From the sequence record NC_047985.1: 49,788 bases of DNA; one strand, written 5' to 3'. Below the pieces are notes generated by a model that was not told where the DNA came from, ran no database searches, and was given only the letters and a program-made list of their open reading frames with translations. The position numbers and the translations under genes are program-made. This DNA is from Escherichia phage LL5. Of the stretch, positions 1 through 42,022 are shown one piece after another. Within the stretch, counting starts at the first letter, position 1; every line of letters starts with the position of its first letter.

Positions 1-31
1 GGCGCAACGTTCCACAACACGTATAACAACA

Positions 32-50
32 AAATATCTATATAATACAT
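32..50 (+). repeat. 19-bp AT-rich motif AAATATCTATATAATACAT (copy 1)
   Basis: see copy at 28885-28903; contains TATAAT. Confidence 0.7.
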
Positions 51-302
51 TGAAAAGTAAGATAATTATTATTATATATCTATATTGTTATATAACTTGT
101 TTTGCTTGTTTCTCATGATATTGATACCCCTTTACTGATTGATAGAGTATAAAATTATAAGATAGGTGCTCTTATTTATTATTGGTGGCGGTGATTTTTA
201 ACGAAATGGTGTAACGATTTAGAACATCGTTGATTTAAAAGGATAAATTTTCAATTACCGTTACATTGCGTGATGTTTTTGTTGTCTAATCAAAAATAAC
301 AC

Positions 303-330
303 TTGACGCACAAGCCAGATTTGCTAAGGT
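303..330 (+). promoter_or_regulatory. sigma70-like promoter (TTGACG-16 nt-TAAGGT) upstream of first early gene
   Basis: -35 TTGACG at 303-308, -10 TAAGGT at 325-330, then SD GGAGG and ATG 365. Confidence 0.45.
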
Positions 331-364
331 TTCTGCATTGAGCAACAACGGAGGATAACCAATT

Positions 365-652
365 ATGGTAATGGGCAAAATCGTAAAGCGTGACCTATCC
401 ATAGTTGACGCAACGCCAGAAGATGCAACAAAAGACATTATGTGCCTAATGTACATAGCGCGGATACTGGAGGCGGCAAAACCAAACAGGCTATATTACA
501 TCGACATTAAGGCATCAGGTCGCGACGTTAATTCATTGCGCCAGGCAATAAACACGATTGCGAAAGAGGATCGCATAACCATTAAGACAATAACCACTGA
601 TAACGGCTATATCGGCTTTGTTATCATCGACGTTAAAGAAGCATTTGTGTAA
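365..652 (+). CDS. hypothetical early protein (95 aa)
   Basis: ORF with GGAGG 10 nt upstream of ATG; no recognisable motif. Confidence 0.6.
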   Translation: MVMGKIVKRDLSIVDATPEDATKDIMCLMYIARILEAAKPNRLYYIDIKASGRDVNSLRQAINTIAKEDRITIKTITTDNGYIGFVIIDVKEAFV

Positions 653-663
653 AGAGGTGAATC

Positions 664-1107
664 ATGGAACAAATGACAAGTAAAGAGTTTTGCGAAAAAT
701 TGCGTGAAGCAGCAAGAGCGGCGGCTACAGGTGAGGCGATCAAGTTGCCAGTTGCCTACATCACAATGCACGTTCAGGCAGAGGACGCAAAGAAGCTAAA
801 TTCCTCATACATTCGCACGATCATGAATCGTGTTCCAGAAGTAAAAGAGGTTGGATCTGTAAGCGTCAAGAAAAAGACAAGCGATGACGGCGCGGAATAT
901 TACGAGATCGCAATCAATCGTGACACAAAGCGCCGCATCGTAACAACTAATGACCTTCCGGCAATCAAAGAGCATGAACGCGAAAAACTGGTTGAAAAGA
1001 TTATGCGCATATCGCCGGACTTCTCACACCTGGACGATGAAAAGGCACTTGTTGCAATGCGAGCGGTTGCCACGTTCAAAGATCTGATTAAGGAGATCTC
1101 AAAGTGA
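664..1107 (+). CDS. hypothetical early protein (147 aa)
   Basis: ORF with AGAGG SD; tightly follows previous gene. Confidence 0.6.
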   Translation: MEQMTSKEFCEKLREAARAAATGEAIKLPVAYITMHVQAEDAKKLNSSYIRTIMNRVPEVKEVGSVSVKKKTSDDGAEYYEIAINRDTKRRIVTTNDLPAIKEHEREKLVEKIMRISPDFSHLDDEKALVAMRAVATFKDLIKEISK

Positions 1108-1211
1108 AAACATTCGCCTTTGTCGCTGCAATGTGGTGTGTTGTTATTGATAGTCCTGGCGTGGCGCTGGTTGTGTTAGGTCTTATTTTGTTGGGGGTGT
1201 TTGATGAATAA
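1104..1211 (+). CDS. small hydrophobic peptide (35 aa, GTG start)
   Basis: GTG overlaps upstream stop (GTGA), AGGAG 8 nt upstream; predicted single TM helix. Confidence 0.35.
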   Translation: MKTFAFVAAMWCVVIDSPGVALVVLGLILLGVFDE

Positions 1212-1317
1212 GAAACTTTTAGATCATGCAGTGCTGTTCTTTATCGCTGCTGCTGGATTTTCGCTGTTGTCAATTGCTTTTTTAATACTTGCTTTTGCCG
1301 TGTCAATGCTGAAATGA
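1204..1317 (+). CDS. small hydrophobic peptide (37 aa)
   Basis: ATG preceded by GGGGG; hydrophobic core LFFIAAAGFSLLSIAFLILAFAV. Confidence 0.35.
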   Translation: MNKKLLDHAVLFFIAAAGFSLLSIAFLILAFAVSMLK

Positions 1318-1337
1318 CGGATTACATCCTGATTGGT

Positions 1338-1359
1338 AAATAGCACTTTTTGTTAAAAC
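1338..1359 (+). promoter_or_regulatory. conserved box copy 1 (AAATAGCAC-N5-TGTTAAAAC); function unknown
   Basis: TAGCA/TGTTA inverted repeat; hairpin GGGGTA..TACCCC follows; 74 nt upstream of ATG 1415. Confidence 0.7.
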
Positions 1360-1414
1360 TCGATTGGGGTAGTTTGGAATAATTACCCCATAGAAACACA
1401 ACGGAGAAAATAAA

Positions 1415-1678
1415 ATGCAATTCGAACTAACCCGCGTAACTGTTGAAATTCTGAATGACGGAACCTATGACGGAATGAAGCATTTAACATTCCCAATCAG
1501 AATTGAGAATTGCCTTGATTATGGCTTGGAAGTCGGAATGGTTGACGTTCCTCTTGATGCCCTGGTTGCGGCTGGTTATGACAAGGTAAAAGGCGGTATG
1601 AATCCAGAATCGCCGGATTGCATGGATAGTGACACGTTTTTACCGTTCAGCTATGGCGAATGCCGGATTGTTGATTAA
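1415..1678 (+). CDS. hypothetical protein (87 aa)
   Basis: ORF with GGAG SD. Confidence 0.55.
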   Translation: MQFELTRVTVEILNDGTYDGMKHLTFPIRIENCLDYGLEVGMVDVPLDALVAAGYDKVKGGMNPESPDCMDSDTFLPFSYGECRIVD

Positions 1679-1749
1679 GGTTATAAAATGAGCAGTTGGC
1701 ACAATGAGCACGTAATGCAATTCTACCGCCACAGAATAAAGAAAATGCT

Positions 1750-1771
1750 AAATAGCACGAATTGCTAAAAC
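1750..1771 (+). promoter_or_regulatory. conserved box copy 2 (AAATAGCACGAATTGCTAAAAC)
   Basis: perfect TAGCA-N5-TGCTA; followed by hairpin with loop ATTTGTTATAGC; 77 nt upstream of ATG 1830. Confidence 0.7.
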
Positions 1772-1829
1772 TAAATCAGGGGCATTTGTTATAGCGTCCC
1801 TCGTTGAGTTAAGCAAAGGAGAATCAACA

Positions 1830-2396
1830 ATGTTAAGCATCGAAAAAATCAACTTCCCGATCACCTTTAAATTCTATCATCCTGACATGCAAGTTACTTT
1901 CACCAGTAAAACGCACGGAGAATGGGGATGTGGTGGAATAACCGGATTTAAACTTGAGTATTTCGTTAACAAGCACAACAACAAAAATCCAGATAATATC
2001 CATGGCAAAGATGGGTATTATGAAATGGCTGCTTGTGGCAGAGAAGAAAAACGAGAGTATGACGATCTGTTAGACGCTTTGAAATATTTAAATATCAAGC
2101 CTGGCCAGGTCAATTTAAACGGTGCTGTATTCACTGCGTCAGTAGGTGCTAAAGATTACGATTACATTTGCAAGGTTGAAAACATGCCAGTTGGCGCAAC
2201 GCTGTTAGGTGTTCAGCGTGAAAACGGCGAATGGGACGAGTTGAAATTTAAACCACGCCGCATTGAAGTACACGACGATGTTATCTGCTTGCTTTCCGGT
2301 TATGCTGGCGGCTACAAGAGCGGCAATAATTACGGCGCTGAAATCAACATTAAGATCGGCACTAACGTAAAAATCAAAAACAGCACTAATTGCTAA
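1830..2396 (+). CDS. hypothetical protein (188 aa)
   Basis: ORF with AAGGAG SD; C-terminal residues NSTNC are encoded by box copy 3. Confidence 0.6.
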   Translation: MLSIEKINFPITFKFYHPDMQVTFTSKTHGEWGCGGITGFKLEYFVNKHNNKNPDNIHGKDGYYEMAACGREEKREYDDLLDALKYLNIKPGQVNLNGAVFTASVGAKDYDYICKVENMPVGATLLGVQRENGEWDELKFKPRRIEVHDDVICLLSGYAGGYKSGNNYGAEINIKIGTNVKIKNSTNC

Positions 2397-2399
2397 AAC
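2378..2399 (+). promoter_or_regulatory. conserved box copy 3, degenerate (AAACAGCACTAATTGCTAAAAC)
   Basis: TAG position is CAG, so upstream ORF reads through to TAA inside the box; 75 nt upstream of ATG 2456. Confidence 0.6.
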
Positions 2400-2455
2400 A
2401 AATTAACGGCCTTGCTATATAGTAAGACCATACCAAACAACGAGAGGATCACAAA

Positions 2456-2770
2456 ATGGAATTAGCACGCAACGCGGTTTATGGCTTACACCTTAAAGGC
2501 GGCAAAGGATCAACTTATGCACACCTGTTTCATGTTAACGAGCGAGGCCAAATTGATATTGCAATGTATGTTGACCAACTTGTTAAAGGTGGTGAGTACG
2601 ACAAGTTCAGGCCGGATCTGATTGAATACGATCACACATACAGTCACGACCACTGGTTAGATGGTTATAAATTTACAATGCTGGATAGCCATGTTATTGA
2701 CACAAGCAAATTAACGAATCGTGACTATAAGCGCATGGCTCGAAAAATCTTGAAGCAGAAAGCACAATAG
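2456..2770 (+). CDS. hypothetical protein (104 aa)
   Basis: ORF with GAGAGG SD. Confidence 0.55.
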   Translation: MELARNAVYGLHLKGGKGSTYAHLFHVNERGQIDIAMYVDQLVKGGEYDKFRPDLIEYDHTYSHDHWLDGYKFTMLDSHVIDTSKLTNRDYKRMARKILKQKAQ

Positions 2771-2842
2771 CACAAAATGTTAAGCGGTCATGTGTGCTGA
2801 TTGGTACAATGACCGCATCAACCAACAAGAGAGGATAGAAAA

Positions 2843-2950
2843 ATGTCAAAAGAATCAATCAAGCAGTTTCTGAAATACGGCTCTATGATTGTGCTCGCTA
2901 CCGTTGTGCTGGCTGGCATCGCGTATAGCATTATTGAGTTTGCGGGGTAA
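2843..2950 (+). CDS. small membrane peptide (35 aa)
   Basis: AGAGAGG SD; hydrophobic stretch MIVLATVVLAGIAYSII. Confidence 0.4.
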   Translation: MSKESIKQFLKYGSMIVLATVVLAGIAYSIIEFAG

Positions 2951-2953
2951 TTG

Positions 2954-3496
2954 ATGTTTACGATCAACTTGTGGGGAAGGGATTATGTTAATCCCTATGT
3001 TGCAACAAAACAGCGTTTCGTTATTTTCGACCTAGACGGCACATTGTCAAATGGTGAGCACCGCTTGCACCTGTTGCCAACGGTTGATTTGCACCTTACT
3101 GAAAGCTGGAGTGAGTTTAATCGCGCGGCTAAGGATGATTTACCGTTCAGCAATAACATTGCCGTATGCAATGCCATGTTTGATGCAGGATATCTGGTTA
3201 TCATCCTAACAGGTCGCAGTGATGAAGTTGAAGCGGAAACGCGAGAATGGTTGGCTGAAAACGGCGTTTCTTTCGATTGGCTTATTATGCGCCGCACGGA
3301 GGACAACCGGAAAGATACCGTAATCAAAGAGGAAGTTTTACGGACTATAGGACTTGATCGTATTGTGGCGTGTTGGGATGATTCACCAAACGTTATTGCA
3401 CACCTGCGCGGCCTGGGCTTGACGGTTTACCAGGTCATTGACTACGGCGACCAGTTGCACGATCACTTAAAGTCTCACGGAGTTGAGAAGTTATGA
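2954..3496 (+). CDS. HAD-superfamily phosphatase (polynucleotide 3'-phosphatase-like)
   Basis: N-terminal DxDGT motif (FVIFDLDGTL), later ILTGR and C-terminal acidic motif; resembles the phosphatase half of T4-type polynucleotide kinase. Confidence 0.65.
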   Translation: MFTINLWGRDYVNPYVATKQRFVIFDLDGTLSNGEHRLHLLPTVDLHLTESWSEFNRAAKDDLPFSNNIAVCNAMFDAGYLVIILTGRSDEVEAETREWLAENGVSFDWLIMRRTEDNRKDTVIKEEVLRTIGLDRIVACWDDSPNVIAHLRGLGLTVYQVIDYGDQLHDHLKSHGVEKL

Positions 3497-3669
3497 AACT
3501 AAAATGCATCGGTGAATATCCAGGCTTTACGGTTGGAAACATGTACAATGCGACAATAGGAATGGATCACACATTTTGTTATGAATGCTATGTTGTCATT
3601 GATGATGATGGTGATTCACGTAGCATTGATTTCGAAACAGAGGATTTTGTAGAGGATCGCTATCTGTGA
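3493..3669 (+). CDS. hypothetical protein (58 aa)
   Basis: ATGA start/stop overlap with upstream gene; GGAG SD. Confidence 0.45.
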   Translation: MKLKCIGEYPGFTVGNMYNATIGMDHTFCYECYVVIDDDGDSRSIDFETEDFVEDRYL

Positions 3670-3763
3670 TTGAAAACTATGATCCAATGGCGCTTGCCTG
3701 GGGCGTTGGTGCTTTCGTTGTGGCGGTTGTGATTTGCTTATGGGATATAAACAGGGGGGATAG

Positions 3764-3973
3764 ATGATCCTGTCCGTTGCTTATGCTAACCCCAGGGGGT
3801 GCAATATATTTGGTTTTAAGGTTGGCGGCATGGTTAACGCCAAATACGACGACAGAGGGCGTTTAATGGTTGAAGCGCCAAAGACAAAAGTAATGATGCA
3901 CGTTAAGGAGATTGGCGGAAGGTTGGCGATCAGGTCAATGGCAGGGCAAACGCTTGTTACTTTCTGTAAATAG
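3764..3973 (+). CDS. hypothetical protein (69 aa)
   Basis: ORF with GGGGGG SD; stop TAG lies inside box copy 4. Confidence 0.5.
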   Translation: MILSVAYANPRGCNIFGFKVGGMVNAKYDDRGRLMVEAPKTKVMMHVKEIGGRLAIRSMAGQTLVTFCK

Positions 3974-3989
3974 CACTTTTTGCTAAAAC
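3968..3989 (+). promoter_or_regulatory. conserved box copy 4 (AAATAGCACTTTTTGCTAAAAC)
   Basis: followed by perfect 8-bp hairpin 3995-4020 with loop TTTGATAAAG; 76 nt upstream of ATG 4047. Confidence 0.7.
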
Positions 3990-4046
3990 TTGCTAAGGCA
4001 CATTTGATAAAGTGTGCCTTGTCGAGACAAGCAAGGAGAATGACAC

Positions 4047-4301
4047 ATGAAACATTACAGGTGCGGCAGTCTTATTTATCGTGACGATTGGGTTAATATT
4101 TTTGTCGCATATTATGACAAGATGGAATTTTTTGAATCCATTTACACAAGGAGCGTTTTTAATTCAATGGTTGATGCCGGATTCATGAAAGAGTGTGAGC
4201 CACCAAAAGAGAAGCCGTTTTATAAAAATGGTGATTTCTGGCATAACGCCGTATTAATCACAGTTCTGTTAATTCTTTCTATGGGGTTTATTTTCTTATG
4301 A
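4047..4301 (+). CDS. hypothetical protein with C-terminal TM segment (84 aa)
   Basis: AAGGAG SD; C-terminal hydrophobic AVLITVLLILSMGFIFL. Confidence 0.5.
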   Translation: MKHYRCGSLIYRDDWVNIFVAYYDKMEFFESIYTRSVFNSMVDAGFMKECEPPKEKPFYKNGDFWHNAVLITVLLILSMGFIFL

Positions 4302-4480
4302 CACTTGATAATAAAGTTGAAACGCAAAAGACGATTGATTATCTGCGTGACCTGGCAGATAAGCTGGAGAATAACCAGATTCATTTAAACAAGATCGTTA
4401 TTGAATCGCGCAACGTTTGTTGGAACGTGGAAGAAGAAACATTGACAATGCAAGTTTTAAAGGCGGTAAACAATGGCTAA
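4298..4480 (+). CDS. hypothetical protein (60 aa)
   Basis: ATGA overlap with upstream stop. Confidence 0.45.
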   Translation: MTLDNKVETQKTIDYLRDLADKLENNQIHLNKIVIESRNVCWNVEEETLTMQVLKAVNNG

Positions 4481-5048
4481 AATTATCATCCTAAATGCGC
4501 CTCCTGGTGCTGGTAAAGACACAATCGGCAAGATGATTTCTTTCTATTCGCCTGGTGAGCAATGCCGCATCATTAGCTTTAAAGAGCCAATGTTTGATAT
4601 TGCATTAGCTATCCTGGGCAAAGAGAACTATCAGCGTTTCATGCTGGCTTACGATGACAGAGAGCAGAAAGAAAGGCCGCAAACGTTCCTGATGGGTATG
4701 TCGCCTCGAGAGTTCATGATCTGGATTAGCGAGGATGTGATCAAGCCTAAATTCGGCAAGGATTATTTCGGCGTAAGGTTTAACCAGAAAGTAAAAGAGT
4801 GTGATGCTCCTGTTGTTTGCACTGACGGAGGTTTTCCAGATGAAATTATCGCGCTAATCAATGCTGGTAATGAAGTGAAGCTATGCCGTTTGCATCGCGA
4901 CGGGTTCACGTTTGCAGGTGATAGCCGCAACTACATTCGAATCAATCCCTATTACCAGAAAAACGGATATAGCGAGCACGATTACTTACTAACGAATGAA
5001 AAGCCGATGATTACAGTTAGCGAAATCATTCGCGATCACCTTAAATAG
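4473..5048 (+). CDS. P-loop nucleotide or polynucleotide kinase
   Basis: Walker A near N-terminus (LNAPPGAGKDT), typical of small phage dNMP/polynucleotide kinases; stop TAG inside box copy 5. Confidence 0.65.
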   Translation: MAKIIILNAPPGAGKDTIGKMISFYSPGEQCRIISFKEPMFDIALAILGKENYQRFMLAYDDREQKERPQTFLMGMSPREFMIWISEDVIKPKFGKDYFGVRFNQKVKECDAPVVCTDGGFPDEIIALINAGNEVKLCRLHRDGFTFAGDSRNYIRINPYYQKNGYSEHDYLLTNEKPMITVSEIIRDHLK

Positions 5049-5064
5049 CACGAATTGCTAAAAC
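5043..5064 (+). promoter_or_regulatory. conserved box copy 5 (AAATAGCACGAATTGCTAAAAC)
   Basis: followed by hairpin 5071-5094 (AAGGCCA/TGGCCTT, loop TTTGATATAG). Confidence 0.7.
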
Positions 5065-5132
5065 TTGCGCAAGGCCATTTGATATAGTGGCCTTATTCAA
5101 GAGAAGCAACCAATCAGAGGAATAAACGATGA

Positions 5133-5172
5133 AAATCAAATGCACCAAATCAAATGCACCAAATCAAACACC
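5133..5172 (+). repeat. 14-bp tandem repeat (AAATCAAATGCACC x2 plus 12-bp partial copy) at 5' end of ORF
   Basis: two exact units at 5133-5146 and 5147-5160; third copy lacks TG. Confidence 0.8.
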
Positions 5173-5340
5173 CTGAATCTGACAGTTGGCGCGATTTACC
5201 ATATGGAAGAAGGTGTAAACGGGTTTAGCCAGACTGTTACGCATGAATACGGCGGTCACTTCTTCTTAAACGGTAAAGACGGATTATCTGTAAATGTTGG
5301 CTCTTTCGTTCTGGCAGAATTTGAGATCGTGGAGGAATAA
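5140..5340 (+). CDS. hypothetical protein (66 aa); start context disturbed by tandem repeat
   Basis: well-placed ATG 5129 (GAGG 8 nt upstream) is out of frame; in-frame ATG 5140 has no SD. Confidence 0.4.
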   Translation: MHQIKCTKSNTLNLTVGAIYHMEEGVNGFSQTVTHEYGGHFFLNGKDGLSVNVGSFVLAEFEIVEE

Positions 5341-5341
5341 A

Positions 5342-5506
5342 ATGTTCTGGATTCATTCGCCGCAAGGATTGCTTTATGTGCCTGGCGTTGAATTGGAAGA
5401 ACGACGCGACGGCGACACGGTAAACATCATAACGAAGGATTCAAAAGGCCATACGCTTAAAACGTATGTTTTTAACACTCCAGTTAAGGTTGAAAAAGAT
5501 GATTAA
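5342..5506 (+). CDS. hypothetical protein (54 aa)
   Basis: GGAGG SD 6 nt upstream of ATG 5342. Confidence 0.45.
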   Translation: MFWIHSPQGLLYVPGVELEERRDGDTVNIITKDSKGHTLKTYVFNTPVKVEKDD

Positions 5507-5625
5507 GATGTGGTTAATATTTATCCTGCTTGTCATAATTGGCAATATTTTGATTGTCGCTTATTGTGTTCCTTTTGGTGGCACTGTTTTGGCTATGGCT
5601 GGTTATTACGTGGGGTACAAATCAA

Positions 5626-5871
5626 ATGAATAGAAAAATGCTGGTACGCGCATTCGCAAAGATTGCTAAAAGATGGGGTGATTCAGCTAAAACGCCTTAC
5701 ACGTTTAGTATGTACGGTTACAAGAATGCTCGCGCCTGGGGTCGCTGCATTGCGGATAACTACAACTCCGAAATGCTGGAAGATTTCGCAAAGTGGATTG
5801 ATACGCCTTTGAAGGATTGGTGTCAATTTGACTATGACTATTTCGCAGAAGAAGAAATTTCTTGTTGGTAA
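5626..5871 (+). CDS. hypothetical protein (81 aa)
   Basis: first ATG of ORF; upstream part of track ORF uses TTG; a 44-aa membrane-peptide ORF (5499-5633) overlaps. Confidence 0.4.
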   Translation: MNRKMLVRAFAKIAKRWGDSAKTPYTFSMYGYKNARAWGRCIADNYNSEMLEDFAKWIDTPLKDWCQFDYDYFAEEEISCW

Positions 5872-5882
5872 GGAGAGTAAAC

Positions 5883-6353
5883 ATGATCGCTAAAAATGAC
5901 CTTTGCAACATGTTAACGGCTGGTAATGATTATCAGGTTTTGAATAGCACAGAAGACCATTATTTTATTGAGTGTGATAATGGGGATCGCATGTGGATTA
6001 AAAAATGCTTTTTCGAAAGCGAGCACCTAAGCAATGCAAAGCGGATCGCAGATGAAGCAAGCGCATTAGCAGAGCGTGAACGAATTCGCGATATAGTAGC
6101 TGAGCAGGTTAGAAATTCTTGTTTGCCTGGTGGCGATATCTTCAATCACGTAAAAGGCGTTGGCGGCTCAGGCTGGCAGATTAAAAAGACTGGTGATGCA
6201 ATCATTCAAAGCATCAACTATGAGCCTAACGAATACGTCAAAGTGCTGGATCAGTTGCGCGAAATCATGCGAGTGCCTGAAGGTGAAAGCATTGTGACAC
6301 ATGCAAAGGTTTTAATGGCGTTGGCTGATGCGCTGATTTGTCTGCAAAAATAG
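5883..6353 (+). CDS. hypothetical protein (156 aa)
   Basis: AGGAG SD then ATG 5883; stop TAG inside box copy 6. Confidence 0.55.
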   Translation: MIAKNDLCNMLTAGNDYQVLNSTEDHYFIECDNGDRMWIKKCFFESEHLSNAKRIADEASALAERERIRDIVAEQVRNSCLPGGDIFNHVKGVGGSGWQIKKTGDAIIQSINYEPNEYVKVLDQLREIMRVPEGESIVTHAKVLMALADALICLQK

Positions 6354-6369
6354 CACTTTTTGTTAAAAC
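6348..6369 (+). promoter_or_regulatory. conserved box copy 6 (AAATAGCACTTTTTGTTAAAAC)
   Basis: followed by hairpin 6377-6398 (loop TTTGTTAAAG, one G.T pair); 76 nt upstream of ATG 6427. Confidence 0.7.
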
Positions 6370-6426
6370 TTCCGCGAGGGCATTTGTTAAAGTGTCCTAA
6401 TTGAAGCGAAACATGGAGATTACGAA

Positions 6427-6630
6427 ATGGCTGTATACACTGGCAAGATGTTTGAATGTCTCAATCCGATTTACGGCGGCAACTATGAGCTAATCATTGA
6501 TGATGATCGCGTTATTCTTGCTAATGATGACGCTGAAGAATATCACGAGGTTGTAGCGGATAAGTACGATAATGACGTTATGATCTTAGCAGGAAACAAC
6601 CGCATCAAGTTTTACGCAGTGGAGGAATAA
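6427..6630 (+). CDS. hypothetical protein (67 aa)
   Basis: ORF with GGAG SD. Confidence 0.5.
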   Translation: MAVYTGKMFECLNPIYGGNYELIIDDDRVILANDDAEEYHEVVADKYDNDVMILAGNNRIKFYAVEE

Positions 6631-6633
6631 CAG

Positions 6634-6939
6634 ATGATCGAAATCAACCTATCAGAAGAACAAGCGAAATCGTTGCTAATGTGCCTGGGTTGGCGCATGG
6701 GCGCAGGTAGCGAGGCGGTTGTAAACATCAAAGAGGAAGTAGCAAGAGAGCTTTTTGCACAGCTTGAGCATAAACTGATGCCAGCCTCAACAAGCGCGGC
6801 GGAGTTGGCTGTGTGGAGGCATGAAAACGGCCTTAATGAAATGGATGTTGAAAAGTGGAAGCGTAAAAACGGGAAAGCTGTTGATAAGGTTGGTTTTGTT
6901 GGTCGCTGTATTATGGTTAACGTGGAGAAGTTCAGATGA
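6634..6939 (+). CDS. hypothetical protein (101 aa)
   Basis: ORF with GGAGG SD. Confidence 0.55.
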   Translation: MIEINLSEEQAKSLLMCLGWRMGAGSEAVVNIKEEVARELFAQLEHKLMPASTSAAELAVWRHENGLNEMDVEKWKRKNGKAVDKVGFVGRCIMVNVEKFR

Positions 6940-7253
6940 TTTATGTTCATAGCTACGGCGTTGGAAAGTTTGGCAGTAAGCAGATCCGAAATATTCACGA
7001 CACGCTCGATGAAGCAATGGCGCAGAAACGCGTTTTAGGTGGAGTGGTTCAGGCGTTTGAATCTGTTGAGAACATAGCTGCTAACGAGTATTACAAAGAC
7101 GTTGTTGTGGATGAGGTTTCGACAATCATCGACGAACTAAGCACGTCAGCGCTAGGCTCACCACGCGATCTTGAGTCGGGTTCTCCAGCGTGGGATAGCT
7201 ACAAGGTCAAGACTTTAAACAACATCCGCGAGCTACTTGACGAAATCAATTAA
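6936..7253 (+). CDS. hypothetical protein (105 aa)
   Basis: ATGA overlap with upstream gene. Confidence 0.55.
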   Translation: MIYVHSYGVGKFGSKQIRNIHDTLDEAMAQKRVLGGVVQAFESVENIAANEYYKDVVVDEVSTIIDELSTSALGSPRDLESGSPAWDSYKVKTLNNIRELLDEIN

Positions 7254-7271
7254 AAATCGATACTGTTTAAA

Positions 7272-7305
7272 GCGCCTCAGACGCATTCTAAGAGGCGCAA
7301 AATTT
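7272..7305 (+). terminator. putative terminator hairpin (GCGCCTC..GAGGCGC) with A/T tract
   Basis: 7-bp GC-rich inverted repeat then AAAATTT, 20 nt after stop of 6936-7253. Confidence 0.35.
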
Positions 7306-7319
7306 GGAAAGGTGATTCT

Positions 7320-7448
7320 ATGCCTAACTACATAAAACCGTCGCAGTGGTGCGCACAGAAGCAAGAGGAAGCGTTAGAGCGCGGCGACACTGATACAGCG
7401 TTGCACTATTTTGAAATGCACCAACTATGGATTAGCAGAGGAATGTAA
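7320..7448 (+). CDS. hypothetical small protein (42 aa)
   Basis: AAGGTG SD; below track length cutoff. Confidence 0.35.
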   Translation: MPNYIKPSQWCAQKQEEALERGDTDTALHYFEMHQLWISRGM

Positions 7449-7449
7449 A

Positions 7450-7677
7450 ATGTTTGGACTTAACGAGGAACAATACAACGCAATAAAGAAAATGGCTCGC
7501 GAGTGCAACAAAGAATTGAAATTCGAATGTGACAACGGCAAGAAGTATGATCACGTTGCAACGGGAATTATCACAAAGCACCACACGCCAGTTTCGACGC
7601 TAATCACTCGCATTAGTTTTATTTGGCTTTGCGGTCACTTAGCGGAGCGGTTCGGTAGGGTTGGCGAGTACGAATAA
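7450..7677 (+). CDS. hypothetical protein (75 aa)
   Basis: GAGG SD then ATG 7450 (track ORF extends upstream without SD). Confidence 0.45.
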   Translation: MFGLNEEQYNAIKKMARECNKELKFECDNGKKYDHVATGIITKHHTPVSTLITRISFIWLCGHLAERFGRVGEYE

Positions 7678-7859
7678 TAGCCAGTTGAATCTGGTAAGGT
7701 TGACGGCGTGTTGTCTGATTGGTAGATTAAACGCCGTGAACATAAGAGACTCAATAGAGCAAAGCGCGGCGCGTTAGCCGTAAAGCCAAATCGGATGGGA
7801 TTGCATTGCAAATGACCATCGCGGGAACCGTAACCCGCAACCACTCAGGAGATTAATTT

Positions 7860-8069
7860 ATGAAATGCACTTTGCTTTTCAAAGAAAGAGTTTTGCACCC
7901 TGGTAGCGAACTTCTTGTTAATCGCGTCATTGTTTCAGAAAAAGATTTCTATATTGATGTTCAAAGGGATGGTGTCATAATCTTAAACAAAGAAGATACA
8001 AAGGCGTTTTCATTCCCAAAACACAACATCATCCAGCTTATCGTAGAGGAAGAAAATAATGCAGAATAA
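7860..8069 (+). CDS. hypothetical protein (69 aa)
   Basis: AGGAG SD. Confidence 0.5.
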   Translation: MKCTLLFKERVLHPGSELLVNRVIVSEKDFYIDVQRDGVIILNKEDTKAFSFPKHNIIQLIVEEENNAE

Positions 8070-8220
8070 AGAAATTGCAAAGGTTACAATCATTGTTGAG
8101 CGCGACGGCAAGAAAACGCGATACAAAAAACGCTTTGCAAAAGGAGAGGCGGTATTAGGCCGGATCGGTGATTTCATGGTGAAATTGCAAGAGGATAAGC
8201 CTGATGAAGTGGAAAGTTAA
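8059..8220 (+). CDS. hypothetical small protein (53 aa)
   Basis: GAGGA SD 8 nt upstream; overlaps neighbours at both ends. Confidence 0.3.
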   Translation: MQNKEIAKVTIIVERDGKKTRYKKRFAKGEAVLGRIGDFMVKLQEDKPDEVES

Positions 8221-8386
8221 CTTTACCATTAGGCGCATTGGTCGCAATTGCGGATCATGCAAACAAGAATTTGAAACGGTTGTTACAGCATGTAGCGCTG
8301 AAATGGCTGTAAGATTTGCTAAAGAATATTCTGGAGCAGATCCAGAAACGCACCAATTTTCAATCAATTATGTGAGGGCTATATAA
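8204..8386 (+). CDS. hypothetical protein (60 aa)
   Basis: GAGGA SD 9 nt upstream. Confidence 0.4.
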   Translation: MKWKVNFTIRRIGRNCGSCKQEFETVVTACSAEMAVRFAKEYSGADPETHQFSINYVRAI

Positions 8387-8616
8387 TGCTGATGTTTTTT
8401 TATGGTGTTGGCGTGACTGTTGCTATTGGTTTTCTGATTCTTTGGGCTATTGGCAAAGCCTCAAAGAAAATGGAAGTTGAACGAAAAATTGCAAGCGCGT
8501 TTTATGACAGCAAGAATGATTGCTGGAAGGTTCGAGGGAATTATATTGCTATTGCGCAAATCATTGAGAATCGCATAAAGCATGGCAAGCCTGGAAGCAT
8601 CAAGTATATTGACTAA
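8386..8616 (+). CDS. small membrane protein (76 aa)
   Basis: N-terminal TM helix MLMFFYGVGVTVAIGFLILWAIG. Confidence 0.45.
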   Translation: MLMFFYGVGVTVAIGFLILWAIGKASKKMEVERKIASAFYDSKNDCWKVRGNYIAIAQIIENRIKHGKPGSIKYID

Positions 8617-8632
8617 TCCAAAGCCGAAACAT

Positions 8633-8657
8633 AACCCGCCTTGCGCGGGTTTTTTTG
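8633..8657 (+). terminator. rho-independent terminator ending the early region
   Basis: CCCGC..GCGGG stem followed by 7 T. Confidence 0.7.
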
Positions 8658-8678
8658 TGCATACAATTTAGCTATAAT
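8650..8678 (+). promoter_or_regulatory. candidate late promoter (perfect -10 TATAAT, weak -35)
   Basis: TATAAT at 8673-8678 between terminator and small terminase start. Confidence 0.3.
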
Positions 8679-8703
8679 CACGCATCAACAGGAGGATTTT
8701 ATT

Positions 8704-9228
8704 ATGGCTAAAAAAACAGAAGCGCCAGCGGCGGAAAGTCTAAACTTTAAAAAGTTATGGAATAAGCGATATTCCGATCTGGTAGGTAGTGAGATTGATA
8801 AGCGCGCAACGCTAACGCCGGAACAAGTCATGAACCTGATTGTTCAGTATTTTGAGTGGGCGGAGCTAAACGCCATTAAAGCAGGTGAAACGGCATCCTT
8901 TCAGGGTCGAGTGTATCAGGATACGATTCACAAGCCGCGTATTTTTACATGGGAAGGGTTAAAGCTGTTTTGCGGTTTTTCCGGCACAGCACTAGCAAAG
9001 TGGAAACTTAAACCAGGCTATGATGTTGTTATTGAGTTTGCGGAATCGGTAATCAAAGAACAAAAATACCAGTTAGCTGCAAACGGAATGATTAACAGCA
9101 CCATGATCGCAAAAGAGCTTGGCATTGATAAAGGCGACACGTTCAATATTAGCGCCAACGCAAAAGAGCAAGACAATACAGAAGAAGCGATGAAAAACGC
9201 AGTCGCAAGCGTCCTAAGCAAGATTTAA
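8704..9228 (+). CDS. terminase small subunit (putative)
   Basis: 174-aa ORF directly upstream of large terminase at head of late operon; AGGAGG SD; call is positional. Confidence 0.55.
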   Translation: MAKKTEAPAAESLNFKKLWNKRYSDLVGSEIDKRATLTPEQVMNLIVQYFEWAELNAIKAGETASFQGRVYQDTIHKPRIFTWEGLKLFCGFSGTALAKWKLKPGYDVVIEFAESVIKEQKYQLAANGMINSTMIAKELGIDKGDTFNISANAKEQDNTEEAMKNAVASVLSKI

Positions 9229-40906: not shown

Positions 40907-42022
40907 ATGAGTTTAAAAAAGATTACCGACGAGCAATTGATCGCTGAACGTGAGGCGGGTTTAAAACTGCGTGAGATTGCGGAAAAATACGGAATGAGCT
41001 TGCGCCAGGTTGAGCACCGACACAGTAAATTGGCTAAACGTGGTGAAATATCAACAATCGGATCACCTGGCTTTGCGGTAATTGGTGAATCACAGCTTAA
41101 ACGTGCAAATGGTGAGGTTGTAATGACCTGGACTAAAACGCACAAAGACAAAGCGCAATTAGAGGCAATAATGCAAGCGGCTATGGCTGCATTTTCTGAC
41201 GAATTGCCACGCCTTGAGCCTAAACCGGAAAAGATTACTGACTATTCGAAAACGCTTGCTCTATATCCGATCTTTGATATTCACATTGGCGCAATGGCTC
41301 ATAAGCATGAAAGCGGTGAGAATTACGACACGGCAACGGCGGAAAACGTCATGAATGAGTTTTTCGATTATGCAGTTTATAAAGCGCCGAATAGCGAAAA
41401 GGCTGTATTGCTGATTGGTGGTGATATGATTCACAGTGACGGATTAGAAGCCGTCACACCTGCAAGCGGTCACGTATTGGATCAAGATTCACGTTATGCA
41501 AAACTGGTTTATGTTGCCATTCGTGCCACGCGTCGAGCAGTAAGCCGGATGCTTGAAAAGCATAAAGAAGTTGAGATCCAGATCATTGAGGGTAATCACG
41601 ACCAATCAGGAATGATCTGGCTACGTGCTGCAATGGCGGCGGCGTATGAGAATGAGCCACGCGTAAAGGTTGATGTTTCTCCGCGTGTCGTGCATCACAC
41701 TCAATATGGTAAAACGTTCCTGGCTTATCATCATGGTCACACTGTACGCAAGCCAGAAACGCTTTTAATGATGTGTGCAGCGGATTGGCGGGAAGATTTC
41801 GGAAACTCCAATTCAATGTATGCTCATGTAGGGCATTGGCATCATCAGACTGTGACGGAAACTAGCTTGGGCATTGTTGAGGTTCATAGCACTATGGCGG
41901 CTAAAGATGCTTATGCGGCTCGTGGCGGTTGGCGTTCACGTCGCAGAGCGGCGGTAATTATTTACGATAAGGAATATGGCGAAATAGGAAGATTTATGTT
42001 TTACCCTGAAATGATTGCTTAA
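40907..42022 (+). CDS. calcineurin-like metallophosphoesterase with N-terminal HTH
   Basis: DIHIG, GGDMIHSD, GNHD, HHGH, GHWHH motifs; N-terminal EREAGLKLREIAEKYGMSLRQV. Confidence 0.75.
   Translation: MSLKKITDEQLIAEREAGLKLREIAEKYGMSLRQVEHRHSKLAKRGEISTIGSPGFAVIGESQLKRANGEVVMTWTKTHKDKAQLEAIMQAAMAAFSDELPRLEPKPEKITDYSKTLALYPIFDIHIGAMAHKHESGENYDTATAENVMNEFFDYAVYKAPNSEKAVLLIGGDMIHSDGLEAVTPASGHVLDQDSRYAKLVYVAIRATRRAVSRMLEKHKEVEIQIIEGNHDQSGMIWLRAAMAAAYENEPRVKVDVSPRVVHHTQYGKTFLAYHHGHTVRKPETLLMMCAADWREDFGNSNSMYAHVGHWHHQTVTETSLGIVEVHSTMAAKDAYAARGGWRSRRRAAVIIYDKEYGEIGRFMFYPEMIA

What the first reader, a model, noticed from the sequence alone, without database searches (positions are those of the whole stretch)
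2954..5048. Polynucleotide kinase/phosphatase-like activities encoded as two separate early genes
A HAD-family phosphatase with the DxDGT motif (2954-3496) and a P-loop kinase (4473-5048) lie about 1 kb apart among the early genes. In T4 these two activities are fused in one polynucleotide kinase that repairs tRNA cut by host anticodon nucleases. No ligase was recognised in this window, so either the partner is a host enzyme or the pair has a different role such as nucleotide metabolism. A split, early-expressed pair is a candidate counter-defence module.
Basis: inference. Interest (0 to 1): 0.45.

Follow-up and report, generated by a model that had tools for sequence, protein, structure and literature searches.

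The report
Linked phosphatase and nucleotide kinase genes
A T1-like phage carries a phosphatase related to the repair enzyme T4 Pnkp and a kinase related to T4's nucleotide kinase gp1; the two genes are adjacent or fused in other phages, and they more likely serve DNA and nucleotide metabolism than repair of cut tRNA.

The parts
2954..3496 (+). Standalone Pnkp-type HAD phosphatase, 180 aa (orthologue of Tls gp09 'pnkP')
   Evidence: PF25109 HAD_PNKP E 2e-19; phrog_415 E 2e-68. PDB sequence hits to Pnkp1 4xrp and the T4 Pnkp phosphatase domain 5uj0/1ltq. hhalign against T4-type Pnkp residues 151-296, probability 98.5%. Conserved D26, D28, G29, T30, R37, T86, G87, R88, D121, K125, D142 and D143, invariant or at least 90% across the family.
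4473..5048 (+). T4 gp1-like P-loop (d)NMP kinase, 191 aa (orthologue of Tls gp14 'dmk')
3493..4480 (+). Four small ORFs (58, 69, 84 and 60 aa, unknown function) lying between the phosphatase and kinase genes, which abut in many relatives
   Evidence: ORFs; PHROG families of unknown function or no hit. In relatives the phosphatase-kinase gap ranges from -1 to 2167 nt between HMM hits.
40907..42022 (+). HTH-metallophosphoesterase, 371 aa (phrog_704 'DNA repair exonuclease'). It is the upstream member of the cassette in relatives; here it lies about 36 kb away
1688..1768 (+). 26-aa homologue of T4 Stp (context only, not part of the enzyme pair)
   Evidence: Identical to the annotated Tls stp product. 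13 of 18 N-terminal residues identical to T4-type Stp.
3970..3988 (+). T1-type 19-bp repeat between the phosphatase unit and the kinase unit
   Evidence: Pattern ATAGCAYKWWTTGYTAAAA: 18 copies in the window against 0.1 expected.
5045..5063 (+). T1-type 19-bp repeat overlapping the kinase stop codon
   Evidence: the kinase stop TAG is at 5046-5048.

Best explanation
The two genes are the separated halves of a conserved phage cassette: metallophosphoesterase nuclease, then Pnkp-type HAD phosphatase, then gp1-like nucleotide kinase. This cassette belongs to the DNA-replication and nucleotide-supply module. In this Tls-like phage the phosphatase and kinase now sit in the left arm, 976 nt apart with four small ORFs between them, while the metallophosphoesterase lies beside the lysis genes, where the whole cassette sits in KP36. 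Shown: the homologies, the gene linkage and the fusions. Inferred: the kinase phosphorylates (deoxy)nucleoside monophosphates as T4 gp1 does. The phosphatase removes 3'-phosphates (or other phosphomonoesters) from nucleotides, or from DNA ends made while host nucleic acid is broken down. Together they feed host-derived nucleotides into phage DNA synthesis. T1 and TLS are reported to degrade host DNA and reuse its nucleotides, and they encode no DNA polymerase or ligase of their own. On this reading the pair is a nucleotide-salvage module, not a tRNA-repair module.

For: Constant pocket. The same pocket residues occur in every context, including a Vequintavirus where the kinase is overlapped by an NT5C-type deoxyribonucleotidase gene near thyA and nrdAB, and phage Faunus where it sits beside dUTPase.

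Experimental precedent. A gp1-like dNMPK (PP_1964) supplies the essential dTMP kinase activity in P. putida (PMC10653934).

Phosphatase context. The standalone phosphatase subfamily, marked by a shared ESW-EFN insertion, overlaps the nrdB stop by 4 nt in T4-like phage Phi1, which already has its own pseT and rnlA.

Linkage. 70 of 80 kinase loci and 72 of 80 phosphatase loci have phosphatase followed by kinase on one strand. The genes overlap by 4 nt in KP36, LAh3 and PP99. The fusions P0259 and P0264 are only 37% identical yet share a conserved linker.

Cassette partner. The partner is an Mre11/SbcD-like metallophosphoesterase. By analogy, from background knowledge, T4 gp46/47 together with gp1 converts host DNA into precursors.

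Literature. TLS and T1 degrade host DNA and reuse the nucleotides (PMC11447400). The KanT1 paper reads the same genes as boosting nucleotide supply (PMC13164509).
Against: No biochemistry exists for either protein. Two of the four gp1 residues that bind the dNMP phosphate are not conserved (K37 becomes F/Y/W, R177 becomes G), and gp1 T140 is replaced by an invariant Glu (E87). The acceptor site is therefore remodelled, and the substrate may not be a dNMP. A phosphatase fused or translationally coupled to a kinase is exactly the architecture of end-healing enzymes. It is not obvious why a 3'-phosphatase should be coupled to a 5'-dNMP kinase. In two podophage lineages the kinase is directly followed by a DNA ligase, and in Faunus it directly follows one. 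The surveyed loci are dominated by related Drexlerviridae, so the 70/80 and 72/80 counts are not independent events.
Confidence: 0.55

Rival explanations
1. DNA end-healing pair. The phosphatase removes 3'-phosphates and the gp1-like kinase phosphorylates 5'-OH ends of broken or nicked phage DNA. The ends can then be sealed by a ligase (host LigA here, a phage DNA ligase in PP99-type phages). The metallophosphoesterase trims ends. Functionally this would be a Pnkp built from a different kinase clade, in the order phosphatase then kinase, as in mammalian PNKP.
For: Natural phosphatase-kinase fusions. 4-nt overlaps in several phage families. In PP99 and L069-type phages the kinase is directly followed by an ATP-dependent DNA ligase and preceded by a nuclease-type phosphoesterase. 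In six podophage loci a diverged metallophosphoesterase stands where the HAD phosphatase would be, reminiscent of the bacterial Pnkp architecture. The acceptor pocket has lost two phosphate-binding cations and gained an invariant Glu that could act as a general base (inference).
Against: To my knowledge no characterised polynucleotide 5'-kinase belongs to the gp1 clade. Homology to the Pnkp kinase is limited to the P-loop. The same kinase, with an identical pocket, occurs without any Pnkp-type phosphatase in nucleotide-synthesis clusters. The phosphatase subfamily occurs beside nrdAB in a phage that already has Pnkp. In T7 (background knowledge) the ligase gene 1.3 and the nucleotide kinase gene 1.7 are also near neighbours, so proximity to a ligase is weak evidence.
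Confidence: 0.25
2. One reading: a split T4-like Pnkp that heals tRNA cut by anticodon nucleases such as PrrC or RloC, with sealing by a host ligase. On this view it is a counter-defence module matched to the phage's own Stp peptide.
For: The phosphatase is Pnkp-type. A T4 Stp homologue lies 1.2 kb upstream. The Stevie genome note proposed the same link for T1-like phages (PMC4319613).
Against: There is no RNA ligase in the window. From background knowledge, E. coli RtcB joins 2',3'-cyclic-P or 3'-P ends to 5'-OH ends directly, so Pnkp-type healing would destroy its substrate, and E. coli has no Rnl1-type ligase. The kinase is not Pnkp-type. The pair occurs in about 1,450 phage records, including 445 Klebsiella and 66 Aeromonas phages. 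Close (Tls-type) Stp matches number only 56 records at 80% identity or more, and only 4 Klebsiella phage records match Stp at all. Ligases associated with the pair in relatives are DNA ligases.
Confidence: 0.07
3. The pair acts on some other small phosphorylated molecule, such as a modified nucleotide, a signalling nucleotide of a defence system, or a cofactor. The kinase and phosphatase would set its level or destroy it.
For: The acceptor pocket differs from gp1 at three key positions. The second-best structural hit, phosphomevalonate kinase, is not a nucleotide kinase. Neither protein has been characterised. Both window genes sit among small accessory-type ORFs in the left arm.
Against: Nothing points to a specific alternative substrate. 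Wherever the genomic contexts are informative, they concern DNA or nucleotide metabolism.
Confidence: 0.1

Closest known systems
T4 polynucleotide kinase/phosphatase (Pnkp, PseT), C-terminal HAD 3'-phosphatase domain
   Same: The window phosphatase is homologous over the whole domain (hhalign 98.5%) and passes the PF25109 threshold. It keeps the counterparts of the catalytic residues DxDxT, R176, S211/R213, D254, K258 and D277/D278 (the T4 residue list is from memory).
   Different: It is standalone, with no N-terminal Pnk-type kinase domain. It carries a conserved insertion of about 13 residues (LHLTESWSEFN) between motifs I and II that T4-type Pnkp lacks. No Rnl1 or Rnl2 partner is present. 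Its substrates are untested.
T4 gp1 deoxynucleoside monophosphate kinase (PDB 1DEK/1DEL)
   Different: Only about 16% identity. It is 50 aa shorter and lacks the gp1 insertion at about residues 96-129 (alignment). K37 and R177 are not conserved, and T140 is replaced by an invariant Glu. It is genetically coupled to a phosphatase, which gp1 is not.
Pseudomonas putida PP_1964 (dNMPK-Pp), a gp1-like kinase from a prophage-like island
   Same: It is a gp1-like kinase of mobile-element origin, shown in vivo to supply dTMP kinase activity (PMC10653934). This supports the view that gp1-like kinases outside T4 are real dNMP kinases.
   Different: I could not obtain its sequence, so its relationship to the window kinase was not tested. 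The scan of bacterial genomes found only two relatives of the window family, both on MAG contigs of about 42-52 kb.
Mammalian PNKP and other fused end-healing enzymes
   Same: The natural fusions P0259 and P0264 have the order HAD phosphatase then P-loop kinase, as in mammalian PNKP (the PNKP domain order is from background knowledge).
   Different: The kinase module belongs to a different P-loop clade (gp1-like, not Pnk-like). There is no FHA domain. In the window the two parts are separate genes.
Bacterial Pnkp/Hen1 RNA-repair systems (kinase, metallophosphoesterase and ligase modules)
   Same: The cassette combines a kinase with a calcineurin-type metallophosphoesterase and, in some podophages, a ligase. 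The best PDB sequence hit of the phosphatase is Pnkp1 of a bacterial Pnkp1-Rnl-Hen1 system (4xrp).
   Different: The ligase is an ATP-dependent DNA ligase (PF01068/PF14743). There is no Hen1. The metallophosphoesterase resembles nucleases of the SbcD, Mre11 and DP1 type and carries an HTH. The genes are separate.
Tls gp09 'pnkP', gp14 'dmk', gp05 'stp' and gp66; the Drexlerviridae arrangement exonuclease-PNK-dNMP kinase
   Same: These are direct orthologues of the window genes (92-100% protein identity in close relatives). The synteny and the nucleotide-supply reading are published (PMC13164509; PMC11447400), as is the Stp-Pnk link (PMC4319613).
   Different: The published annotations call gp09 a 'polynucleotide kinase' although it has only the phosphatase domain. 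I found no mention, in the papers read here, of the fusions, the spread of the cassette to other phage families, or the fold assignment.

Membership tests
Pnkp-type HAD 3'-phosphatase (Pfam PF25109 HAD_PNKP) | Score above the Pfam gathering threshold over the whole domain | tested here: met
   70.5 bits against a cut-off of 27.6, residues 23-163 on profile positions 3-139 of 143.
Pnkp-type HAD 3'-phosphatase (Pfam PF25109 HAD_PNKP) | HAD motif I DxDxT (nucleophile and acid/base Asp) | tested here: met
   D26-L-D28-G-T30; D26, D28, G29 and T30 invariant in 28 family members.
Pnkp-type HAD 3'-phosphatase (Pfam PF25109 HAD_PNKP) | Motifs II-IV and the Pnkp-specific arginines (T4 R176, S211/R213, D254, K258, D277/D278) | tested here: met
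   R37, T86-G87-R88, D121, K125 and D142-D143 are invariant or at least 90% conserved and align with the T4-type Pnkp motifs. The list of essential T4 residues is from memory.
Pnkp-type HAD 3'-phosphatase (Pfam PF25109 HAD_PNKP) | 3'-phosphatase activity on DNA or RNA ends | not testable with these tools
   Needs an enzyme assay.
Bifunctional T4-type Pnkp (kinase and phosphatase in one end-healing enzyme) | A Pnk-type 5'-kinase module homologous to T4 Pnkp residues 1-150 | tested here: not met
Bifunctional T4-type Pnkp (kinase and phosphatase in one end-healing enzyme) | Partner RNA ligase (Rnl1 or Rnl2) for tRNA repair | tested here: not met
   The DNA-ligase HMM and RnlA find nothing in the window, and no unassigned ORF is large enough. 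No ligase is annotated in Tls.
Bifunctional T4-type Pnkp (kinase and phosphatase in one end-healing enzyme) | Kinase and phosphatase act as one functional unit | tested here: inconclusive
   Genetic coupling is strong: fusions, 4-nt overlaps, and 70/80 and 72/80 synteny. Whether they act on the same substrate is unknown.
T4 gp1-type dNMP kinase | gp1 fold (P-loop core plus helical dNMP-binding domain) | tested here: met
T4 gp1-type dNMP kinase | Full-length sequence-profile homology and the G-K-D-T P-loop | tested here: met
   hhalign probability 88%, E 2.8e-6, 173 columns. G14, K15, D16 and T17 are invariant.
T4 gp1-type dNMP kinase | dNMP-phosphate-binding residues K37, R68, R132, R177 (1DEK; Table 2 of PMC10653934) | tested here: inconclusive
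   R68 maps to R63 (52 of 53) and R132 to R79 (53 of 53), both conserved. K37 maps to F/Y/W and R177 to G (52 of 53), not conserved. An invariant K37 lies one helical turn earlier.
T4 gp1-type dNMP kinase | Base-contact and lid residues D175, E181, D204 | tested here: met
   D118, E124 and D150 are invariant in 53 of 53; T140 is replaced by an invariant E87.
T4 gp1-type dNMP kinase | dNMP to dNDP phosphotransfer activity | not testable with these tools
   Needs an assay or tmk complementation, as was done for PP_1964.
Calcineurin-like metallophosphoesterase (cassette partner, 40907-42022) | Five metal-binding motifs and the phosphoesterase fold | tested here: met

The most novel reading that the evidence does not exclude
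The gp1-like kinase is really a polynucleotide (DNA) 5'-OH kinase. Together with the standalone Pnkp-type phosphatase, and as a single polypeptide in some phages, it would form a second, independently assembled kind of end-healing enzyme. With the metallophosphoesterase and a DNA ligase it would repair phage DNA breaks carrying 3'-P/5'-OH ends, such as those left by host defence nucleases. This would be the first polynucleotide kinase in the gp1 clade and a widespread phage DNA-repair or counter-defence pathway.
Probability: 0.2. Interest if true: 0.7.

Novelty: new member of a known kind. Interest (0 to 1): 0.3.

Why it matters
How T1-like phages turn host DNA into phage DNA precursors is unresolved: the TLS re-annotation states that the responsible gene products have not been identified. 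The cassette of metallophosphoesterase, phosphatase and kinase is a concrete candidate that can be tested with three knockouts and simple enzyme assays. The results also correct a common mis-annotation. The 'polynucleotide kinase' of hundreds of Drexlerviridae and other phage genomes has no kinase domain. The neighbouring 'hypothetical' or 'ATP-binding' protein is a gp1-like kinase that no Pfam family covers. If the kinase turned out to act on DNA ends, the pair would be a new type of end-healing enzyme.

Tried and rejected
- Sequence searches of the kinase against PDB, as a single sequence and as a profile, gave only generic P-loop hits; the fold search was needed.
- The profile search of the metallophosphoesterase against PDB found only its N-terminal HTH.
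- The promoter/terminator scan of 1-9000 showed no enrichment and could not define transcription units or timing.
- The search for more fusion proteins in IMG/VR with P0259 found nothing. P0264 sits on a 1.9-kb contig with no useful context.
With the narrower alignment it found only two MAG contigs, so PP_1964 could not be compared directly.
- I considered that phrog_704 might be the missing ligase and rejected this: it has metallophosphoesterase motifs and fold.
- I considered that the fusions might be gene-calling artefacts and rejected this. P0259 was found on three contigs, and the two loci shown come from two sequencing runs. The DNA shows an uninterrupted frame. The two fusions are 37% identical yet share a conserved linker.
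- The retron Eco2 paper mentions polynucleotide kinase only as a laboratory reagent.
- The T5 dNMP kinase was not compared.
Full report
**What the window is.** The 49.8-kb window is a T1-like siphovirus of the genus Tlsvirus (Drexlerviridae). It is about 94-95% identical in nucleotide sequence to coliphage Tls over most of the first 25 kb, with the same gene order as the annotated Tls record.

**The observation.** Both ORFs exist as described.
- ORF 2954-3496 encodes 180 aa with FDLDGT at residues 25-30.
- ORF 4473-5048 encodes 191 aa with the P-loop NAPPGAGKDT.
- They are 976 nt apart, with four small same-strand ORFs between them.
- They are the orthologues of Tls gp09 'pnkP' and gp14 'dmk'.
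- The window has no ligase. An ATP-dependent DNA-ligase HMM and a T4-type RnlA query find nothing. Every ORF of at least 180 aa is assigned except one 188-aa unknown, which is shorter than any ligase seen here.
- Expression timing could not be checked.

**The phosphatase.** It is a genuine Pnkp-type HAD phosphatase.
- It scores 70.5 bits on PF25109 HAD_PNKP (cut-off 27.6) and E 2e-68 on phrog_415.
- It hits the solved structures of Pnkp1 (4xrp) and the T4 Pnkp phosphatase domain (5uj0, 1ltq) by sequence.
- Its family profile aligns with residues 151-296 of a T4-type Pnkp at 98.5% probability.
- The catalytic set is invariant or nearly so across the family: D26, D28 and T30; R37; T86-G-R88; D121; K125; D142-D143.
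- It differs from T4 Pnkp in two ways. It is standalone (family members are 163-264 aa). It also carries a conserved insertion, LHLTESWSEFN, between motifs I and II that T4-type Pnkp lacks.

**The kinase.** It is not a Pnkp kinase.
- It has no Pfam family, and PHROGs places it in phrog_139 'dNMP kinase'.
- The family profile aligns with gp1 over 173 columns (probability 88%, E 3e-6). It aligns with a T4-type Pnkp over only the 26-residue P-loop segment.

I mapped the 1DEK pocket residues listed in Table 2 of PMC10653934 onto the family.

| gp1 (1DEK) residue | Role | Window residue | State in 53 family members |
|---|---|---|---|
| G13, K14, D15, T16 | ATP/phosphate | G14, K15, D16, T17 | invariant |
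| R68 | dNMP phosphate | R63 | R in 52 of 53 |
| R132 | dNMP phosphate | R79 | invariant |
| D175 | base contact | D118 | invariant |
| E181 | base contact | E124 | invariant |
| D204 | lid | D150 | invariant |
| K37 | dNMP phosphate | F41 | replaced by F/Y/W/L |
| R177 | dNMP phosphate and base | G120 | G in 52 of 53 |
| T140 | base contact | E87 | invariant Glu |

The acceptor pocket is therefore gp1-like but remodelled. The substrate cannot be read off with certainty.

**The two genes are functionally linked.**
- A profile search of 1.84 billion representatives found about 3,700 relatives of the kinase. Two of them, P0259 (403 aa) and P0264 (461 aa), carry an N-terminal HAD_PNKP domain. These fusions are only 37% identical to each other yet share a conserved linker. 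P0259 was found on three contigs, and the two loci shown come from two sequencing runs, with an intact reading frame.
- In Klebsiella phage KP36 (Drexlerviridae), and in Aeromonas phage LAh3 and Pectobacterium phage PP99 (both Autographiviridae), the phosphatase and kinase genes overlap by 4 nt.
- Among 80 viral contigs retrieved through the kinase, 70 have the phosphatase upstream on the same strand, 31 of them abutting.
- Among 80 retrieved through the phosphatase, 72 have the kinase downstream, 42 of them abutting.
- These loci are mostly related Drexlerviridae, so the counts are not independent. The presence of the pair in different phage families, plus the fusions, makes the linkage robust all the same.
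- In the window the pair has simply been pulled apart; gaps between the two genes in relatives range from -1 to 2167 nt.

**The third partner.**
- In KP36 and PP99 the pair is directly preceded by a gene of about 375 aa annotated 'DNA repair exonuclease'; the same family (phrog_704) directly follows the fusion in L002. About 20 of the 80 kinase-centred contigs and 31 of the 80 phosphatase-centred contigs show it just upstream of the pair. LAh3 has a more diverged 324-aa metallophosphoesterase in that position.
- The window's copy lies at 40907-42022.
- The protein has an N-terminal HTH and the five calcineurin-type metallophosphoesterase motifs.
- It is not a ligase.
- In PP99 an ATP-dependent DNA ligase directly follows the kinase. 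In six L069-type podophage loci the order is 5'-3' exonuclease, diverged metallophosphoesterase, kinase, DNA ligase, with no HAD phosphatase.

**Evidence for nucleotide metabolism.**
- Distant members of the kinase family have exactly the same pocket residues but sit in nucleotide-synthesis contexts.
- In a Vequintavirus the kinase gene is overlapped by an NT5C-type deoxyribonucleotidase gene and lies near thymidylate synthase and ribonucleotide reductase.
- In Erwinia phage Faunus it lies between DNA ligase and dUTPase. Neither locus has a Pnkp-type phosphatase.
- The standalone phosphatase subfamily, recognisable by its insertion, occurs in the T4-like phage Phi1. There it overlaps the nrdB stop codon by 4 nt, directly behind nrdA-nrdB, although Phi1 has its own pseT and rnlA a few kb away.
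- A gp1-like kinase from a prophage-like island supplies the essential dTMP kinase activity of P. putida (PMC10653934).
- T1 and TLS degrade host DNA and reuse its nucleotides, and the responsible genes are unidentified (PMC11447400).
- A 2026 paper on the T1-like phage KanT1 already noted 'PNK' and 'dNMP kinase' directly after the 'DNA repair exonuclease' in Drexlerviridae. It read them as enhancing nucleotide supply (PMC13164509).

**The anticodon-nuclease idea.**
A 26-aa ORF at 1688-1768 is identical to the annotated Tls stp product. It shares 13 of its first 18 residues with T4-type Stp, the peptide that activates PrrC. The Stevie genome note made the same connection (PMC4319613).
- The repair pathway, however, is incomplete. 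There is no RNA ligase. From background knowledge, E. coli RtcB seals 3'-P or 2',3'-cyclic-P ends to 5'-OH ends directly, so Pnkp-type healing would not help it.
- The kinase-phosphatase pair is also far more widespread than Stp. The kinase occurs in about 1,450 phage records, including 445 Klebsiella phages. Tls-type Stp (80% identity or more) occurs in only 56 records, and only 4 Klebsiella phage records match Stp at all.

**Verdict.**
- The context favours a DNA/nucleotide-metabolism cassette, probably for salvage of host nucleic acid (confidence about 0.55).
- A DNA end-healing role remains a serious rival (about 0.25), because of the fusions, the ligase neighbours and the remodelled acceptor pocket.
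- tRNA repair is unlikely (about 0.07).
- The genes, their annotation, the synteny within Drexlerviridae and the Stp link are already in the literature. New here are the fold-level assignment, the natural fusions, the conservation of the cassette across phage families, and the nrdAB-coupled phosphatase. The finding is of modest interest and easy to test.

Noticed in passing
window 1688-1768 (+): A 26-aa ORF, MSSWHNEHVMQFYRHRIKKMLNSTNC, is identical to the annotated Tls stp product. It shares 13 of its first 18 residues with T4-type Stp, the activator of the PrrC anticodon nuclease and inhibitor of EcoprrI. The C-terminal third is unrelated to T4 Stp.
   Followed up: partly
window, 18 sites, e.g. 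1340, 1752, 2380, 3970, 5045, 6350, 30280, 36098, 45412(-), 49484(-): A 19-bp element, ATAGCAYKWWTTGYTAAAA (palindromic core TAGCA-N5-TGCTA), occurs 18 times against 0.1 expected. The copies run in the same direction as the local genes and lie mostly at gene ends. This is the repeat reported for T1 and Stevie; its function is unknown. It brackets the phosphatase unit and the kinase unit separately.
   Followed up: partly
window 1752-1770 and 2380-2398: The repeat is translated in frame as the last residues plus stop (…NSTNC*) of two different ORFs: stp and the 188-aa ORF 1830-2396. It also supplies the TAG stop of the kinase at 5046-5048. One kinase homologue (P0061) ends …NSTNY.
   Followed up: no
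L001 (Tls NC_009540) 4564-5139: The RefSeq 'dmk' CDS starts at 4681 and so omits the first 39 residues, including the P-loop. The intact ORF starts at 4564.
   Followed up: yes
public records OR786094 and several 'Campylobacter phage' records: 'Streptococcus phage MBBL140' is 94.8% identical to this T1-like enterobacterial phage over 96% of the first 25 kb. Several 'Campylobacter phage' records are also T1-like or rV5-like. These look like contaminants or mislabelled hosts.
   Followed up: no
window 40907-42022 (+): The 'DNA repair exonuclease' (phrog_704) gets no significant Pfam hit (only a sub-threshold HTH_23 match). It is an HTH-metallophosphoesterase with all five metal-binding motifs, and no Rad50/SbcC-like partner was seen in the window.
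   Followed up: yes
L069, L076-L078, L082, L084 (podophage contigs of about 24-45 kb): The kinase is preceded by a diverged metallophosphoesterase and followed by an ATP-dependent DNA ligase, with no HAD phosphatase. The metallophosphoesterase may have displaced the HAD phosphatase.
   Followed up: partly
L088 (Vequintavirus Bas59) 6004-7205: The kinase homologue is overlapped at its 3' end by an NT5C-type HAD deoxyribonucleotidase gene, near thyA and nrdAB. This is a second, independent kinase-HAD phosphatase pairing.
   Followed up: partly
L174 (phage Phi1) 3986-4462: A standalone phosphatase of the same subfamily overlaps the nrdB stop codon by 4 nt. Its motif I reads DLDFT and its motif IV reads ED instead of DD.
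   Followed up: partly
phosphatase homologues P0135, P0141, P0216, P0222, P0223, P0166: Some family members (about 200-264 aa) carry C-terminal extensions. Several contain a CxxC-containing segment (…VVDGKCLRCG…) that looks like a zinc ribbon; the window protein lacks it.
   Followed up: no
L002 11789-12751: In the phage contig that carries the fusion, the metallophosphoesterase is followed by a PAPS-reductase-like gene and a Dam-type methyltransferase.
   Followed up: no
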